In this document: positions 20,480 through 51,469 of the stretch, in pieces
Layout: every line of letters begins with the position of its first letter
Numbering within the stretch: the stretch's first letter is position 1
NCBI RefSeq assembly: GCF_000026545.1
Contig: NC_011601.1
DNA length: 64,000 nucleotides
Origin: Escherichia coli O127:H6 str. E2348/69
GTDB lineage: Bacteria; Pseudomonadota; Gammaproteobacteria; Enterobacterales; Enterobacteriaceae
Reading direction: 5' to 3' (one strand)
The notes under the pieces: generated by a model
What the model saw: only the letters and a program-made list of their open reading frames with translations
Database searches by the model: none
What the model was told of the DNA's origin: nothing
Translations under genes and position numbers: made by a program

Positions 20480-20570
20480 TAATTCACCCTCTTCAAACAG
20501 AAGAGGGTGAATTATCCGTAGGCCGGGCAAGCGTGGCGCTCCCGGCAAAACGTAAACAACGAGTACATTA

Positions 20571-24323: not shown

Positions 24324-25487
24324 ATGCTGAGACACAACGTTCCTGTGCGGCGGGATCTGGACCGGATTGCCGCCGATAACGGATTTGACTTTCATATCAT
24401 CGACAATGAAATCTATTGGGATGAGAGTCGGGCTTATCGCTTTACTTTGCGCCAGATTGAAGAGCAGATCGAAAAACCGACTGCGGAACTGCATCAGATG
24501 TGCCTTGAGGTGGTGGATCGCGCGGTTAAAGACGAAGAGATCCTGACGCAACTGGCGATCCCGCCGTTGTACTGGGATGTGATCGCCGAAAGCTGGCGCG
24601 CACGCGATCCTTCGTTGTATGGCCGTATGGATTTTGCCTGGTGTGGTAATGCACCGGTTAAGTTGCTGGAGTACAACGCCGATACGCCAACTTCATTGTA
24701 CGAGTCGGCTTATTTCCAGTGGTTGTGGCTGGAAGACGCCCGGCGTGGCGGCATTATTCCGCGTGATGCCGATCAGTACAATGCCATTCAGGAACGCCTG
24801 ATTTCGCGCTTTAGTGAGCTTTACAGTCGGGAACCGTTTTATTTTTGCTGCTGTCAGGACACCGATGAAGACAGGAGTACCGTGCTGTACTTGCAGGACT
24901 GCGCCCAGCAGGCAGGGCAGGAGTCGCGGTTTATCTACATTGAAGATCTCGGTTTGGGCGTCGGCGGCGTACTGACCGATCTTGATGATAATGTCATCCA
25001 GCGTGCATTTAAGCTGTATCCGCTAGAGTGGATGATGCGTGACGATAACGGTCCGCTGCTGCGCAAGCGTCGCGAGCAATGGGTGGAGCCGTTATGGAAA
25101 AGTATCTTGAGTAATAAAGGGCTAATGCCGCTGCTTTGGCGCTTCTTCCCTGGTCATCCTAACCTTCTTGCATCCTGGTTCGATGGTGAAAAACCGCAGA
25201 TTGCCGCTGGCGAAAGCTATGTGCGTAAACCGATTTACTCGCGCGAAGGCGGAAACGTCACCATTTTCGACGGTCAGAATAACGTCGTTGACCACGCTGA
25301 TGGTGATTACGCCGATGAACCGATGATCTACCAGGCGTTTCAACCTCTGCCGCGATTTGGCGATAGCTACACACTCATCGGTAGCTGGATTGTCGATGAT
25401 GAAGCGTGCGGAATGGGGATCCGTGAAGATAACACGCTGATCACCAAAGACACCTCACGTTTCGTTCCGCATTACATTGCTGGATAA
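24324..25487 (+). CDS. yjfC: Glutathionylspermidine-synthase-like ATP-grasp protein YjfC
   Basis: ORF 24309..25487; start at MLRHNVPVRRDLDRIAADNGFDF (24324); GSP_synth-like. Confidence 0.85.
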   Translation: MLRHNVPVRRDLDRIAADNGFDFHIIDNEIYWDESRAYRFTLRQIEEQIEKPTAELHQMCLEVVDRAVKDEEILTQLAIPPLYWDVIAESWRARDPSLYGRMDFAWCGNAPVKLLEYNADTPTSLYESAYFQWLWLEDARRGGIIPRDADQYNAIQERLISRFSELYSREPFYFCCCQDTDEDRSTVLYLQDCAQQAGQESRFIYIEDLGLGVGGVLTDLDDNVIQRAFKLYPLEWMMRDDNGPLLRKRREQWVEPLWKSILSNKGLMPLLWRFFPGHPNLLASWFDGEKPQIAAGESYVRKPIYSREGGNVTIFDGQNNVVDHADGDYADEPMIYQAFQPLPRFGDSYTLIGSWIVDDEACGMGIREDNTLITKDTSRFVPHYIAG

Positions 25488-25570
25488 GAATGTTTTAGCA
25501 ATCTCTTTCTGTCATGAATCCATGGCAGTGACCATACTAATGGTGACTGCCATTGATGGAGGGAGAAACA

Positions 25571-27196
25571 GTGCACTGGCAAACTCACACCGTTTTTAAT
25601 CAACCTATACCATTAAATAACAGCAACTTATACCTGTCTGATGGCGCGCTCTGCGAAGCGGTAACGCGTGAAGGTGCTGGCTGGGATAGCGATTTTCTAG
25701 CCAGTATTGGTCAGCAGTTAGGGACGGCTGAATCCCTTGAACTGGGGCGGCTGGCGAATGTGAATCCGCCTGAATTATTGCGCTACGATGCGCAGGGGCG
25801 GCGTCTGGACGATGTGCGTTTTCACCCCGCCTGGCACCTGCTGATGCAGGCGCTATGTACCAATCGGGTGCACAATCTTGCCTGGGAAGAAGACGCTCGC
25901 TCCGGCGCATTTGTGGCGCGCGCGGCGCGTTTTATGTTGCACGCACAGGTTGAGGCAGGGTCGTTATGTCCGATAACGATGACCTTTGCCGCCACGCCAT
26001 TGCTGTTACAGATGTTACCCGCGCCGTTTCAGGACTGGACCACGCCGCTGTTGAGCGATCGCTACGATTCTCACTTATTGCCAGGTGGGCAAAAACGCGG
26101 TTTGTTGATTGGCATGGGAATGACGGAAAAGCAGGGCGGTTCCGATGTCATGAGCAACACCACCCGCGCAGAGCGCCTGGAAGATGGCTCTTATCGGCTG
26201 GTGGGGCATAAATGGTTTTTCTCGGTGCCGCAAAGCGATGCGCATCTGGTGCTGGCGCAGACTACGGGCGGTTTGTCCTGCTTTTTTGTGCCGCGCTTTT
26301 TGCCTGACGGGCAACGCAACGCGATTCGCCTCGAGCGGCTGAAAGATAAGCTGGGTAATCGCTCTAACGCCAGTTGCGAAGTGGAGTTTCAGGATGCCAT
26401 TGGCTGGTTGTTAGGGCAGGAAGGGGAAGGAACTCGTCTGATCCTGAAAATGGGAGGGATGACGCGTTTTGATTGCGCCCTGGGTAGCCATGCCATGATG
26501 CGCCGTGCATTTTCGCTGGCGATTTATCATGCACATCAACGCCATGTTTTTGGTAATCCATTGATCCAACAGCCTCTTATGCGTCATGTCTTAAGTCGCA
26601 TGGCACTTCAGCTTGAAGGGCAAACGGCGTTGCTGTTTCGTCTTGCGCGAGCGTGGGACCGGCGTGCCGATGCCAAAGAAGCCCTGTGGGCGCGTTTATT
26701 TACGCCTGCGGCGAAATTTGTGATCTGCAAACGTGGCATTCCGTTTGTGGCCGAAGCGATGGAGGTGCTGGGCGGCATTGGTTATTGCGAGGAGAGCGAG
26801 CTGCCGCGGCTTTACCGGGAGATGCCGGTAAACAGTATTTGGGAAGGTTCCGGCAATATTATGTGCCTGGATGTGCTGCGCGTTCTCAATAAGCAAGCGG
26901 GCGTATACGACTTATTGTCGGAAGCATTTGTGGAAGTGAAAGGGCAGGATCGCTATTTTGATCGCGCGGTTCGTCGTTTACAGCAGCAGCTGCGTAAGCC
27001 AGCTGAAGAATTGGGGCGAGAGATTACTCATCAGCTATTCCTGCTGGGCTGCGGTGCGCAAATGTTGAAATATGCCTCTCCGCCAATGGCGCAGGCGTGG
27101 TGTAAGGTGATGTTAGATACGCGCGGCGGCGTACGGTTGTCAGAGCAGATCCAGAATGATTTATTGCTGCGGGCGACGGGAGGAGTGTGTTTGTAA
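25571..27196 (+). CDS. aidB: Adaptive-response flavoprotein AidB (acyl-CoA dehydrogenase family)
   Basis: ORF 25553..27196; recalled AidB begins (V)HWQTHTVFNQPIPLNNSNLYL at GTG 25571. Confidence 0.92.
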   Translation: MHWQTHTVFNQPIPLNNSNLYLSDGALCEAVTREGAGWDSDFLASIGQQLGTAESLELGRLANVNPPELLRYDAQGRRLDDVRFHPAWHLLMQALCTNRVHNLAWEEDARSGAFVARAARFMLHAQVEAGSLCPITMTFAATPLLLQMLPAPFQDWTTPLLSDRYDSHLLPGGQKRGLLIGMGMTEKQGGSDVMSNTTRAERLEDGSYRLVGHKWFFSVPQSDAHLVLAQTTGGLSCFFVPRFLPDGQRNAIRLERLKDKLGNRSNASCEVEFQDAIGWLLGQEGEGTRLILKMGGMTRFDCALGSHAMMRRAFSLAIYHAHQRHVFGNPLIQQPLMRHVLSRMALQLEGQTALLFRLARAWDRRADAKEALWARLFTPAAKFVICKRGIPFVAEAMEVLGGIGYCEESELPRLYREMPVNSIWEGSGNIMCLDVLRVLNKQAGVYDLLSEAFVEVKGQDRYFDRAVRRLQQQLRKPAEELGREITHQLFLLGCGAQMLKYASPPMAQAWCKVMLDTRGGVRLSEQIQNDLLLRATGGVCL

Positions 27197-40008: not shown

Positions 40009-40106
40009 AATAGTTATTTTGATATATTCGCTAAATCATAAATTTGCGAAGCAATGCCAGTAGATACTGAACGTTTTGGAAGAGACGTTTAATTTATGAG
40101 AAAAAT

Positions 40107-40139
40107 AGAAACGCTACAAAGCTAAATTATAGCGTTTCT
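40107..40139. terminator. Candidate bidirectional terminator between convergent HipT-like gene and MFS transporter gene
   Basis: 9-bp inverted repeat AGAAACGCT ... AGCGTTTCT with 15-nt loop, A/T-rich flanks. Confidence 0.45.
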
Positions 40140-40150
40140 ATGTAAAATAA

Positions 40151-49919: not shown

Positions 49920-51469
49920 CTGTCTCTTATACACAAATCCCCACCCGGGGATTTGTGATGTCTGTCAGTCTGCTTTAGGGGGACTCTTTCCATCCGGTAG
50001 TTTCCTTCCTCCCCGGCAGCGATTTTTTGAACTTTTTCCTCACCTGTTGATCTTCTCTTATATTTCATTTTCTTCGGGTCTGTTATGGTACTTTCTGATT
50101 GTTATTCATGGGCTAACGAGCAGTTTGGACATGCCCGTCTCGGTGATCCGCGTCGTACACGACGCCTTGTGTCACTGGCCTCTTCTCTCGCTCAGCATGC
50201 AGGTCTTTCTATTGTGAAATCATCCCAGTCCACTGCTCAGGTTGAAGGTGCGTACCGCCTGATACGTAACCCGTCTGTGTCCCCGCAAGCCATTGCCGAA
50301 GCCGGATTTACCGCCACTGTAAGGGCATGTGAGGCTCATCCGCTGCTCCTCGCGCTGGAAGACACCACCACCATTAACTTCAGTCACAGTACGGCATCTG
50401 ATGACCTGGGGAATACCACCACTAACCCGAAGACGCGCGGGCTGCTGGCTCACTCTGTCCTGATGTACGCCCCCGACAGCGCCCTGCCAGTCGGTCTTAT
50501 CGAACAGCAGCGCTGGAGTCGTGCCACGGACACCTACGGTGTTAAGCACCAGCGAAAAGAACGTCCCTATGAAGAAAAAGAAAGTTACCGCTGGCAGCAG
50601 GCTTCGGAGCGCATGGCCGAACGGCTGGGGGAGATACAGAAACGGGTAATCACTGTCTGTGACCGGGAAGCGGATATCTGGCATTACCTGCATTATAAAG
50701 TCAGCCACGGGCAGCGCTTCGTGGTGCGTGCAGCACAGAATCGCCGGCTGGAAGAAGCACCCGGCAAGCTCTTCGAACTGCCGGAAGTCCTGGCAACCGC
50801 GGGAAGCCACACGCTGAATGTGATGCAAAAAGGCGGGCGGGCAGCCCGCCAGGCCCGGATGTTCATCAGTTACAGCGAAGTCAGCATAAAAAATCCCGAC
50901 AACAGCGGCCAGGCGCTCCCGCTCACGTATGTCTGTTGCCGGGAGCAGGCAGAGGACGGCGCCTGCTGGCATCTGCTGACGTCAGAAAAAGTGGCGAGTG
51001 CCGCCGATGCGCGACGTATCGTCAGCCATTACGAGCGACGCTGGCTGATAGAGGAATACCACAAGGCGTGGAAAAGTGGTGGTACATGTGTGGAATCGCT
51101 GTGAATGCAGACCCGGGATAACCTCGAGCGCATGGTGGTTATCAAGGCGTTTATCGCGGTGCGGGTGCTGGGCCTGCGGCAGGGCGGTATCAGTGAAGAA
51201 ACACAAAATGACAGCTGTGAGAAAATACTGACGCCGACAGAGTGGAAACTGCTGTGGGTTAAGCTGGAAGGAAAACCGCTTCCGTCACAGATGCCGACAC
51301 TGAAATGGGCCTGTCTGAAACTGGCGAAACTGGGGCGATGGCATGACAGCAAACGCACCGGTCGCCCCGGTTGGGTAGTCATGTGGGATGGCTGGTTCAG
51401 ACTTCAGGATATGGTTGAGGGTTACCTGGTGATGAAGTCTCTTGATCAGGAGATCTGATCAAGAGACAG
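49920..51469 (+). mobile_element. IS50-like insertion sequence (IS4 family), ~1.55 kb, with terminal inverted repeats and ~9-bp flanking direct repeats
   Basis: Left end CTGTCTCTTATACACAAAT (49920-) and right end AGATCTGATCAAGAGACAG (-51469) match IS50 OE/IE-type ends; flanks CGAACCAG at 49912-49919 and 51470-51477; internal transposase homologous to Tn5 Tnp. Confidence 0.85.
50085..51458 (+). pseudogene. IS50-like DDE transposase interrupted by in-frame TGA (339-aa + 117-aa fragments)
   Basis: ORFs 50085..51104 and 51105..51458 share one frame, separated by TGA at 51102-51104; Tn5-Tnp-like motifs GDPRRT, ALEDTT, CDREADI, RWLIEEYHKAWK in the first part and DNLERMV / DSKRTG in the second. Confidence 0.8.

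What the first reader, a model, noticed from the sequence alone, without database searches (positions are those of the whole stretch)
25522..25553. Imperfect 14-bp inverted repeat overlapping the aidB promoter/5' region
ATGGCAGTGACCAT-acta-ATGGTGACTGCCAT (one mismatch between arms) lies 18-49 bp upstream of the aidB GTG start. It could be a regulator-binding site (AidB is reported to bind its own promoter; Ada also regulates aidB) or an RNA hairpin in the leader.
Basis: seen in the sequence. Interest (0 to 1): 0.3.

Follow-up and report, generated by a model that had tools for sequence, protein, structure and literature searches.

The report
Promoter-embedded RNA hairpin upstream of aidB
The inverted repeat is real and lies on the aidB core promoter (-23 to +9); it is most likely the tip of a larger RNA hairpin that forms only in transcripts reading through from the upstream gene yjfC and buries the aidB ribosome-binding site, not an Ada/AidB site or a hairpin in aidB's own leader.

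Summary
The window is E. coli E2348/69, at the yjfC-aidB intergenic region. The repeat is exactly as described: arms 25522-25535 and 25540-25553, 13 of 14 complementary, loop ACTA. About 0.025 such repeats are expected per shuffled window.

The published aidB start site maps to G25545, the unpaired G of the right arm. The repeat therefore spans -23 to +9, and the -10 hexamer CATACT (25533-25538) sits at the left-arm/loop junction. aidB's own 26-nt leader lacks the left arm, so it cannot form the hairpin. The Ada box (AAT-N6-GCAA) lies upstream at 25490-25502.

The repeat is the apex of a two-tier hairpin (25502-25566). Its lower stem pairs a pyrimidine tract with the aidB Shine-Dalgarno sequence.

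- All 14 distinct intergenic regions with yjfC directly upstream and no terminator fold this way, using different sequences (median z -4.6). These come from Escherichia, Salmonella, Citrobacter and Phytobacter.
- Forty aidB upstream regions with a terminator or a different neighbour do not (median z about -0.5 and -0.1).
- G.U pairs and a sense-strand stability bias point to RNA rather than DNA.

Best reading (about 0.45): insulation of aidB from yjfC read-through, as in IS10/IS50 fold-back inhibition. This is untested experimentally. Interest is moderate.

The parts
24324..25487 (+). yjfC CDS (glutathionylspermidine synthase family). It is the last gene of the upstream yjfK-L-M-C run, on the same strand as aidB, and no terminator follows it.
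   Evidence: RefSeq annotation of the identical E2348/69 record. The terminator scan of 25300-25800 found 0 sites.
25490..25502 (+). Ada box AATGTTTTAGCAA (A box AAT, 6 nt, B box GCAA), at -55 to -43 relative to the start site. It is separate from the inverted repeat.
   Evidence: Sequence. The motif definition AAT(N)6GCAA for aidB is from PMC3788762 and PMC4437013.
25502..25514 (+). 5' strand of the lower stem, TCTCTTTCTGTCA. This pyrimidine tract is complementary to the aidB Shine-Dalgarno region (13 pairs, 4 of them G.U). It also covers the probable -35 region (CTGTCA 25509-25514).
   Evidence: RNA folds. 89% of cells are paired across 16 sequences, against 35-54% for the whole 30-pair structure when the partners are slid. 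The RNAalifold consensus recovers it. The -35 assignment is my inference.
25515..25521 (+). 7-nt asymmetric bulge (TGAATCC) between the lower and upper stems.
   Evidence: Folds. The polymorphic site T25515G lies here.
25522..25535 (+). Left arm of the reported inverted repeat (ATGGCAGTGACCAT), at -23 to -10. Its 3' half is the -17 to -10 region of the sigma-S promoter.
   Evidence: Positions are relative to the start site.
25533..25538 (+). -10 hexamer CATACT (-12 to -7), preceded by -13C at 25532.
   Evidence: -13C at NC_000913.2 coordinate 4412259 corresponds to window 25532. The aidB -10 is stated to begin with C (PMC3141248). CATACT is conserved 31-32 nt before the aidB start codon across Enterobacteriaceae.
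25536..25539 (+). Loop ACTA.
25540..25553 (+). Right arm of the inverted repeat (ATGGTGACTGCCAT), at -5 to +9.
25545..25545 (+). aidB transcription start (+1, G). This is the unpaired G of the G:G mismatch. The native 5' UTR is 25545-25570 (26 nt).
   Evidence: Start coordinate 4412272 and -13C at 4412259 on NC_000913.2 (supplement files 23 and 32 of bioRxiv 10.1101/2020.02.05.936344). The mapping is anchored by sequence: window 25211 corresponds to 4411938 (file 7 of the same supplement; window sequence).
25554..25566 (+). 3' strand of the lower stem, TGATGGAGGGAGA, containing the aidB Shine-Dalgarno sequence (GGAGGGAG, 25558-25565).
25571..27196 (+). aidB CDS (GTG start).
   Evidence: RefSeq annotation. 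Orthologues were found.

Best explanation
The inverted repeat is the apical stem of a roughly 65-nt, two-tier RNA hairpin (25502-25566) encoded across the aidB promoter.

The upper stem is the reported repeat. The lower stem pairs the pyrimidine tract 25502-25514 with the aidB Shine-Dalgarno region 25554-25566. The aidB promoter starts transcription at G25545, inside the 3' arm. aidB's own mRNA therefore carries only the 3' strand, and its ribosome-binding site is free.

yjfC has no terminator, so transcripts reading through from it carry both strands. They fold back and occlude the aidB ribosome-binding site. aidB is then not translated from upstream transcription. The untranslated read-through RNA would probably be exposed to Rho, with the hairpin acting as a 3'-end barrier for the yjfC mRNA.

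Shown here: the repeat itself, its position relative to the -10 hexamer and +1, the predicted structure, its recurrence with different sequences in every yjfC-adjacent orthologous locus examined, and its bias towards the sense strand.

Inferred: that read-through RNA exists, that the hairpin forms in vivo, and that it blocks translation or stabilises a 3' end.
For: 1. Position. +1 is window 25545, so the repeat spans -23 to +9 and the native leader lacks the 5' arm. The native mRNA is predicted to be unstructured (z = +0.52).

2. Structure. The full 84-nt intergenic region folds at -35.5 kcal/mol, z = -5.7, with 0 of 200 shuffles as good. The same two-tier hairpin is the MFE and centroid structure in a 241-nt context.

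3. No alternative terminator. Nothing terminator-like lies between yjfC and aidB.

4. Recurrence. All 14 distinct intergenic regions with yjfC directly upstream fold into a long hairpin pairing an upstream pyrimidine tract with the SD. Their z-scores run from -2.6 to -6.4, median -4.6. They fall into 6 sequence groups: Escherichia, Salmonella, two unnamed metagenome sequence groups with Citrobacter-like proximal sequence, C. sedlakii and Phytobacter. By contrast, 18 regions with a T-run terminator upstream have median z -0.5, and 22 others have median z -0.1. One of these others is E. cloacae, which has a divergent gene upstream.

5. Within-genus contrast. The metagenome locus L155 (yjfC upstream) and L110/L196 (terminator upstream) share the proximal sequence. 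Only L155 has the perfect anti-SD TCTCCCTCCGTC.

6. Compensated differences. E. coli pairs ATGGCAG with CTGCCAT. Salmonella pairs TCAATGGCGC with GCGCCATTGA, plus AGTCA with TGACT around the -10. The lower-stem column pair 25/72 appears as G.U, G-C and A-U.

7. Pair counts. 82.9% of cells are paired in 16 sequences, against 35-54% when the partners are slid, and 0 of 500 shuffles reach the observed value.

8. RNA level, sense strand. There are many G.U pairs. The + strand fold is more stable than the - strand fold in 12 of 14 yjfC-adjacent regions, by 11-12 kcal/mol in Escherichia. The other classes show no such bias.

9. Ribosome-binding-site occlusion. The cost of opening -16 to +6 is 16.2 kcal/mol in read-through RNA against 7.3 in native RNA for the yjfC class (difference 9.7). 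The difference is 2.7 for the terminator class. Mann-Whitney p = 8e-5, not corrected for phylogeny.

10. Polymorphism. Most E. coli variants in the hairpin are structure-neutral: A25522G and A25514G give G.U, T25515G lies in the bulge, A25539T in the loop, and G25545A at the mismatch.
Against: No transcript data were available, so the existence and abundance of yjfC-to-aidB read-through RNA are assumed.

In E. coli itself the extra cost of opening the ribosome-binding site is modest (5.5 kcal/mol). The crude unpaired-probability measure did not separate native from read-through RNA for this strain.

A pyrimidine tract upstream of the -35 region also exists where read-through is impossible (Enterobacter). 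It may therefore have a promoter role, and the lower-stem complementarity may be partly incidental.

The SD strand is invariant for its own reasons, so most variation in the lower stem is one-sided C/U, which is weak covariation evidence.

The exact register of the upper stem, the repeat as reported, is Escherichia-specific. Within Escherichia there are no compensatory double changes, and two rare variants break a pair (T25541G, G25561T).

The class comparison is not phylogenetically corrected. The terminator-class loci may have lost the 5' strand through rearrangement rather than relaxed selection.
Confidence: 0.45

Rival explanations
1. No selected function. The repeat is a by-product of two independently constrained elements: the sigma-S extended -10 region (TGACCATACT) and the conserved aidB 5' UTR (CTGCCATTGA..GGAGGGAGA). 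On this view complementarity arose by chance or by template-switch 'palindrome perfection' in the Escherichia lineage.
For: The inner left arm is the -17 to -10 promoter region. The outer right arm is a 5' UTR segment conserved across genera. The repeat in this register occurs only in Escherichia. No compensatory double substitutions are seen within Escherichia. The repeat is no more conserved than its flanks between E. coli and E. albertii: 3 of 32 positions differ in the repeat against 5 of 83 in the whole intergenic region.
Against: It does not explain why all 14 yjfC-adjacent intergenic regions from 6 sequence groups are strongly structured with different sequences, while 40 others are not. 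It also does not explain the sense-strand bias or the compensated E. coli/Salmonella differences.
Confidence: 0.2
2. DNA-level operator. A dimeric repressor binds the dyad over -23 to +9 and blocks RNA polymerase at PaidB. Candidates are an unknown factor, AidB itself or Lrp.
For: A dyad centred at about -7 is the classic position for a repressor. aidB is a RegulonDB-listed Lrp target, and Lrp-mediated repression is reported in the title of Landini 1996 (reference lists). aidB is also reported to be autoregulated by AidB (PMC3236019; K-12 product name). The half-site TGACCA/TGGTCA resembles TetR-family boxes such as RutR's (my recollection).
Against: Orthologous promoters keep complementarity but not sequence. 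The extended structure relies on G.U pairs and is strand-asymmetric, which has no meaning for duplex DNA. Arms of 14 bp are longer than usual operators. AidB's specific binding is reported for AT-rich UP elements, and this repeat is not AT-rich. No similar copy exists elsewhere in E. coli genomes. The spacing (6 nt) does not fit the RutR box (2 nt).
Confidence: 0.15
3. The hairpin serves only the upstream operon. It acts as a U-tract-less terminator or a 3'-exonuclease barrier that defines and stabilises the 3' end of yjfKLMC mRNA, with no role in aidB translation.
For: It is the only stable structure after the yjfC stop codon. In the terminator-class loci, a canonical terminator of a different upstream gene occupies the corresponding position directly upstream of the conserved TTTTGTGACC box.
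Against: No U-tract follows either stem, so intrinsic termination should be poor. The conserved feature across genera is specifically pairing with the SD, which a pure 3'-end hairpin would not need. A partly held 3'-end map supplement listed no end here, which is weak evidence.
Confidence: 0.15
4. One reading: the hairpin forms in the leader of aidB mRNA made from PaidB and controls its stability or translation.
For: The hairpin is very stable as RNA.
Against: +1 is G25545, inside the right arm. The -10 is conserved at a fixed distance. The native RNA lacks the left arm and shows no significant structure.
Confidence: 0.05

Closest known systems
Fold-back inhibition of read-through transcripts in IS10/Tn10 and IS50/Tn5 (Davis, Simons and Kleckner 1985; Krebs and Reznikoff 1986; recalled from memory, papers not held)
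   Same: A sequence upstream of the gene's own start site is complementary to the ribosome-binding region. The gene's own promoter fires between the two strands. Native mRNA is therefore translatable, while RNA from outside promoters folds back and is silent.
   Different: This is a chromosomal stress gene, not a transposase. The upstream transcription comes from a fixed neighbour (yjfC), not from random insertion contexts. The hairpin has a second, apical tier that encloses the -10 hexamer. Nothing has been tested experimentally.
IS200 left-end elements: a terminator against impinging transcription plus an SD-sequestering stem-loop in the 5' UTR (PMC4513863)
   Same: RNA structure is used both to stop or neutralise incoming transcription and to sequester the SD.
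   Different: In IS200 the SD-sequestering stem lies inside the native 5' UTR and represses the native mRNA too, and a true bidirectional terminator is present. At aidB the native mRNA escapes and there is no U-tract terminator.
Intrinsic (Rho-independent) terminator
   Same: A stable G+C-containing hairpin directly after a stop codon, at the end of an operon.
   Different: There is no 3' U-tract. The stem extends over the next gene's SD, and the next gene's promoter sits inside it.
Palindromic repressor operator overlapping -10/+1 (lac, LexA or TetR-type)
   Same: A near-perfect dyad centred near -7.
   Different: The 14-bp arms are unusually long. The sequence is not conserved in orthologous promoters while pairing is. 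No cognate protein is known.

Membership tests
Ada operator (Ada box) | AAT-N6-GCAA motif located about -40 to -60 | tested here: not met
   The repeat (-23 to +9) contains no AAT-N6-GCAA. Its only AAT is followed by GGTGAC-TGCC. The true box, AATGTTTTAGCAA, is at 25490-25502, or -55 to -43 (motif; +1).
AidB autoregulatory site (UP element) | AT-rich UP-element-like sequence upstream of -35 | tested here: not met
   The repeat is 50% G+C and lies downstream of -35. AidB's preference for UP elements is reported in PMC3546729. Binding itself was not testable here.
Intrinsic terminator | G+C-rich hairpin | tested here: met
   -20.1 kcal/mol for the 32-mer and -35.5 kcal/mol for the full hairpin.
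Intrinsic terminator | Run of U immediately 3' of the stem | tested here: not met
   The scan of 25300-25800 found 0 terminator-like sites. The 3' flanks are UUGAUGG (upper stem) and AACAGUG (lower stem).
Fold-back inhibition / read-through insulator hairpin (IS10/IS50 type) | An upstream segment complementary to the RBS, giving a stable hairpin in upstream-initiated RNA | tested here: met
   13-bp lower stem 25502-25514/25554-25566 plus the 13-bp upper stem. z = -5.7. It persists in a 241-nt context and recurs in 14 of 14 yjfC-adjacent orthologous regions.
Fold-back inhibition / read-through insulator hairpin (IS10/IS50 type) | The gene's own start site lies between the two strands, so native mRNA lacks the 5' strand | tested here: met
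   The published +1 maps to 25545, which is 3' of the whole 5' strand and left arm. The native RNA is predicted to be unstructured.
Fold-back inhibition / read-through insulator hairpin (IS10/IS50 type) | Read-through transcripts exist and are poorly translated compared with native transcripts | not testable with these tools
   Only a computed opening cost is available: 15.1 against 9.5 kcal/mol in E. coli, and a median of 16.2 against 7.3 in the yjfC class.
Palindromic transcription-factor operator | Half-site sequence conserved in orthologous promoters | tested here: not met
   Salmonella, Citrobacter and Phytobacter have different arm sequences.
Dispersed palindromic repeats (REP/BIME, MITE) | Many copies per genome | tested here: not met
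   Median of one place per genome, at most 2, in 5424 E. coli genomes.
Curated RNA families (Rfam 15) | Match to a covariance model | tested here: not met
   The only hit was a chance snoRNA match at E = 0.12 outside the element.

The most novel reading that the evidence does not exclude
The yjfC-aidB intergenic region encodes a conserved 'promoter-inside-a-hairpin' insulator. The aidB sigma-S/Ada promoter is nested in the DNA that encodes a long RNA hairpin. Only transcripts born at that promoter can be translated, while read-through from the neighbouring yjfKLMC operon is translationally silenced and probably cleared by Rho. This would be a chromosomal counterpart, outside mobile elements, of IS10/IS50 fold-back inhibition. 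It has been maintained across Escherichia, Salmonella, Citrobacter and Phytobacter, and it decays where a canonical terminator takes over.
Probability: 0.4. Interest if true: 0.55.

Novelty: new member of a known kind. Interest (0 to 1): 0.4.

Why it matters
aidB is a long-studied model promoter for Ada, sigma-S, Lrp and AidB autoregulation. Its studies have used promoter fragments and have not, to my knowledge, considered RNA coming from yjfC.

If the hairpin works as proposed, it explains how a tightly regulated stress gene can sit 84 bp behind an unterminated operon without leaking. It also warns that aidB reporter fusions carrying upstream DNA measure two RNA populations with different translatability.

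More generally, it would be a clean natural example of operon insulation by RNA folding rather than termination. This design principle is known from insertion sequences and from synthetic biology, but is rarely documented for ordinary chromosomal genes. The comparative contrast between a hairpin and a terminator at the same locus makes it directly testable.

Tried and rejected
- Sigma-70 promoter and terminator consensus scans of 25300-25800 found nothing. This fits a weak-(-35), activator- and sigma-S-dependent promoter and the absence of an intrinsic terminator.

- The primary aidB papers are not held: Landini 1994 (PMC197013), Rippa 2010 (PMC2981221 and by DOI), Rippa 2011 (PMC3162126) and Landini and Busby 1999 (PMC94152).

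- Genome-wide start-site and 3'-end supplements gave nothing for this intergenic region, or the papers were not held. One PMC id I guessed was a wrong paper.

- Text searches for 'aidBp', 'CATACT', and aidB with ChIP-exo or SELEX returned only irrelevant papers. The start site was finally recovered from the supplement of bioRxiv 10.1101/2020.02.05.936344.

- The same supplement lists aidB coordinates 4411838-4411888 inside yjfC. Their origin is not stated in the passages I read. The methods describe taking the strongest model-scan site per gene for part of that set, so I judged them likely predictions rather than mapped starts and did not use them.

- The mean unpaired probability of the SD was too crude to separate native from read-through RNA. 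I replaced it with an opening-energy calculation.

- By eye I checked for CRP, LexA, FNR half-site, TrpR, sigma-54 and RutR motifs in the repeat. None fits in sequence and spacing. This rests on my knowledge of the consensus sequences, not on a tool test.

- The GadE/YdeO link shows indirect induction only and offers no site in the repeat.

Full report
**Identity of the locus.** The 501 bp around the finding are 100% identical to E. coli E2348/69 and are present in 5424 of 5426 complete E. coli genomes. The annotation gives yjfK-yjfL-yjfM-yjfC followed by aidB, all on the + strand of the window. yjfC ends at 25487 and the aidB GTG is at 25571, so the intergenic region is 83 nt. K-12 MG1655 is identical across the repeat.

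**The observation.** The sequence is as reported: ATGGCAGTGACCAT (25522-25535), ACTA, ATGGTGACTGCCAT (25540-25553), with one G:G mismatch.
- The repeat extends to 18-nt arms at 89% complementarity.
- A scan of the whole window for 14-nt arms with at most one mismatch and a 3-8 nt loop finds four loci. Dinucleotide shuffles give 0.025 on average.
- The hairpin is stable as RNA (-20.1 kcal/mol, z = -6.2) and as single-stranded DNA (-13.3 kcal/mol for the 40-mer 25518-25557).
- It is a single-copy feature.

**Position relative to the known aidB promoter.** The primary aidB papers are not in the held library. The supplement of bioRxiv 10.1101/2020.02.05.936344 re-maps published aidB data onto NC_000913.2. 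It gives the start at 4412272 (from the Typas and Hengge table) and -13C at 4412259 (from the Lacour et al. 2002 mutant).
- Anchoring by sequence, that supplement's piece ending ...attgccgctggc at 4411938 corresponds to window 25211. This gives +1 = window G25545 and -13C = C25532.
- The -10 hexamer is therefore CATACT at 25533-25538. This agrees with the statement that the aidB -10 begins with C (PMC3141248).
- CATACT is conserved 31-32 nt before the aidB start codon throughout Enterobacteriaceae.
- The repeat thus spans -23 to +9. The -10 sits at the left-arm/loop junction, and +1 is the unpaired G of the mismatch.
- The Ada box AATGTTTTAGCAA lies at 25490-25502 (-55 to -43), 20 bp upstream of the repeat (motif from PMC3788762 and PMC4437013).
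- AidB's specific DNA preference is reported for AT-rich UP elements (PMC3546729).

aidB's own 26-nt leader (25545-25570) cannot form the hairpin and is predicted to be unstructured (z = +0.5).

**The repeat is the top of a larger structure.** Folding the whole intergenic region gives a two-tier hairpin.
- The upper stem is the repeat.
- A 7-nt bulge lies at 25515-25521.
- The 13-bp lower stem pairs TCTCTTTCTGTCA (25502-25514) with TGATGGAGGGAGA (25554-25566). The latter contains the aidB Shine-Dalgarno sequence.
- The energy is -35.5 kcal/mol with z = -5.7.
- The hairpin is retained as the MFE and centroid structure in a 241-nt context.
- Four of the lower-stem pairs are G.U. They pair only in RNA, and only on the + strand.

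**Comparative evidence.** aidB loci came from a scan of one genome per species, from contigs encoding named orthologues and from a metagenome pattern scan.
- The long repeat in the E. coli register is confined to Escherichia.
- Salmonella enterica, a second Salmonella lineage, C. sedlakii, Phytobacter and two unnamed metagenome sequence groups with Citrobacter-like proximal sequence share the E. coli architecture: yjfC directly upstream, an 84-nt spacer and no terminator. In every one of them the spacer folds into a long hairpin pairing an upstream pyrimidine tract with the SD.
- The sequences differ. Salmonella pairs TCAATGGCGC with GCGCCATTGA and AGTCA with TGACT around the -10, where E. coli pairs ATGGCAG with CTGCCAT. 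One metagenome group has a perfect 12-bp anti-SD, TCTCCCTCCGTC.

Across 54 distinct 84-nt upstream regions:

| Upstream context | n | median z |
|---|---|---|
| yjfC directly upstream, no terminator | 14 | -4.6 (range -2.6 to -6.4) |
| T-run terminator upstream | 18 | -0.5 |
| other neighbours | 22 | -0.1 |

One member of the 'other' class, E. cloacae, has a divergent transporter gene upstream.

Further measurements:
- On a 16-sequence alignment, the lower stem is 89% paired and the whole structure 82.9%. Slid controls give 35-54%, and 0 of 500 shuffles reach the observed value.
- One lower-stem position appears as G.U, G-C and A-U.
- RNAalifold independently recovers the lower stem and the GGC/GCC core of the upper stem.
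- The + strand folds better than the - strand in 12 of 14 yjfC-class regions, by 11-12 kcal/mol in Escherichia. The other classes show no such bias.
- The energy needed to open -16 to +6 is 16.2 kcal/mol in read-through RNA against 7.3 in native RNA for the yjfC class. The difference is 2.7 kcal/mol in the terminator class.
- Within E. coli and E. albertii, most variants in the hairpin are structure-neutral (two A-to-G changes giving G.U, plus bulge, loop and mismatch positions). Two rare variants break a pair, and there are no double compensatory changes.

**Interpretation.** The pattern has four parts: pairing is kept while sequence changes, G.U pairs are used, the bias is to the sense strand, and the structure goes with the absence of a terminator. 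Together these fit an RNA structure acting on transcripts that enter from yjfC better than they fit a protein operator. Because +1 lies between the strands, the arrangement reproduces the logic of fold-back inhibition in IS10 and IS50 (from memory; compare the IS200 elements described in PMC4513863). Outside-initiated RNA hides the ribosome-binding site and native RNA does not. A secondary consequence could be Rho termination in untranslated aidB RNA, with the hairpin acting as a 3' barrier for yjfC mRNA. I put this reading at about 0.45.

**Caveats.**
- No transcript or probing data were available.
- In E. coli the computed extra opening cost is only 5.5 kcal/mol.
- A pyrimidine tract also exists in promoters that cannot receive read-through.
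- The SD strand is invariant for its own reasons.
- The class comparison is not phylogeny-corrected.

**Rivals.**
- By-product of a constrained -10 region and 5' UTR: 0.2.
- DNA operator for an unknown repressor: 0.15.
- 3'-end or terminator function only: 0.15.
- Hairpin in the native leader: 0.05.

**Comparison with known systems.**
- It is not an Ada box, not a UP element, not an intrinsic terminator (no U-tract), not a dispersed repeat and not in Rfam.
- It meets the two sequence-level criteria of a fold-back insulator: complementarity to the ribosome-binding site, and the gene's own start site lying between the strands.
- The functional criterion is untestable here.
- I class it as a probable new member of a known kind, of moderate interest.

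Noticed in passing
window 25490-25502, compared with L088, L090, L008, L003 and others at about -84 to -70 from the aidB start: The E. coli/E. albertii Ada box (AATGTTTTAGCAA) is replaced in nearly all other Enterobacteriaceae by a strongly conserved TTTTGTGA(C/T)C box at the same position. Ada control of aidB through a canonical box may therefore be Escherichia-specific, or another factor may bind there. In non-Escherichia yjfC-adjacent loci, the TGTG of this box also pairs with the CACA just before the start codon.
   Followed up: partly
window 25545: The transcription start nucleotide is exactly the unpaired G of the G:G mismatch in the repeat. It is polymorphic, G to A, in strain E400634.
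   Followed up: partly
window 20480-20514: A perfect 14-bp inverted repeat, TAATTCACCCTCTTCAAACAGAAGAGGGTGAATTA, lies in the short rnr-rlmB intergenic space directly after the rnr stop codon. It may be an intra-operon hairpin.
   Followed up: no
window 40106-40140: A 14-bp inverted repeat with one mismatch lies between the end of an MFS transporter gene and a convergent, frameshifted HipA-family toxin pseudogene. It is probably a bidirectional terminator.
   Followed up: no
window 51436-51468: An inverted repeat, AGTCTCTTGATCAGGAGATCTGATCAAGAGACA, lies at the 3' end of an IS4-like ISEc13 transposase gene next to cycA.
   Followed up: no
L091 (Citrobacter amalonaticus), about 1391-1500: About 70 bp carrying its own hairpin (gttgcagg...cctgcaac) are inserted between the conserved TGACCATACTTA -10 region and the conserved CTGCCATTGAAGGAGGGAGA leader. 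The upstream neighbour is rlmB, not yjfC. The aidB promoter may be split or displaced in this species.
   Followed up: no
L089 (E. coli GCA_900450065.1), 1501-1560: A one-base deletion in the right arm (GACTGCC to GATGCC) occurs in a genome where yjfC is called as four fragments and aidB is called 16 codons longer, starting at the ATG of the left arm. This could be true decay or assembly indel errors.
   Followed up: no
window about 25111-25161 (NC_000913.2 coordinates 4411838-4411888), inside yjfC: The sigma-38 modelling preprint lists aidB-labelled coordinates here. They are probably model-scan predictions rather than mapped starts, but their source is not stated in the passages read. If a real start existed here, its long leader would contain the whole hairpin.
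   Followed up: no
window 25477-25599 (+) and 25472-25603 (-): Two mechanical ORFs of 40 and 43 aa overlap the repeat. There is no evidence that either is a gene.
   Followed up: no
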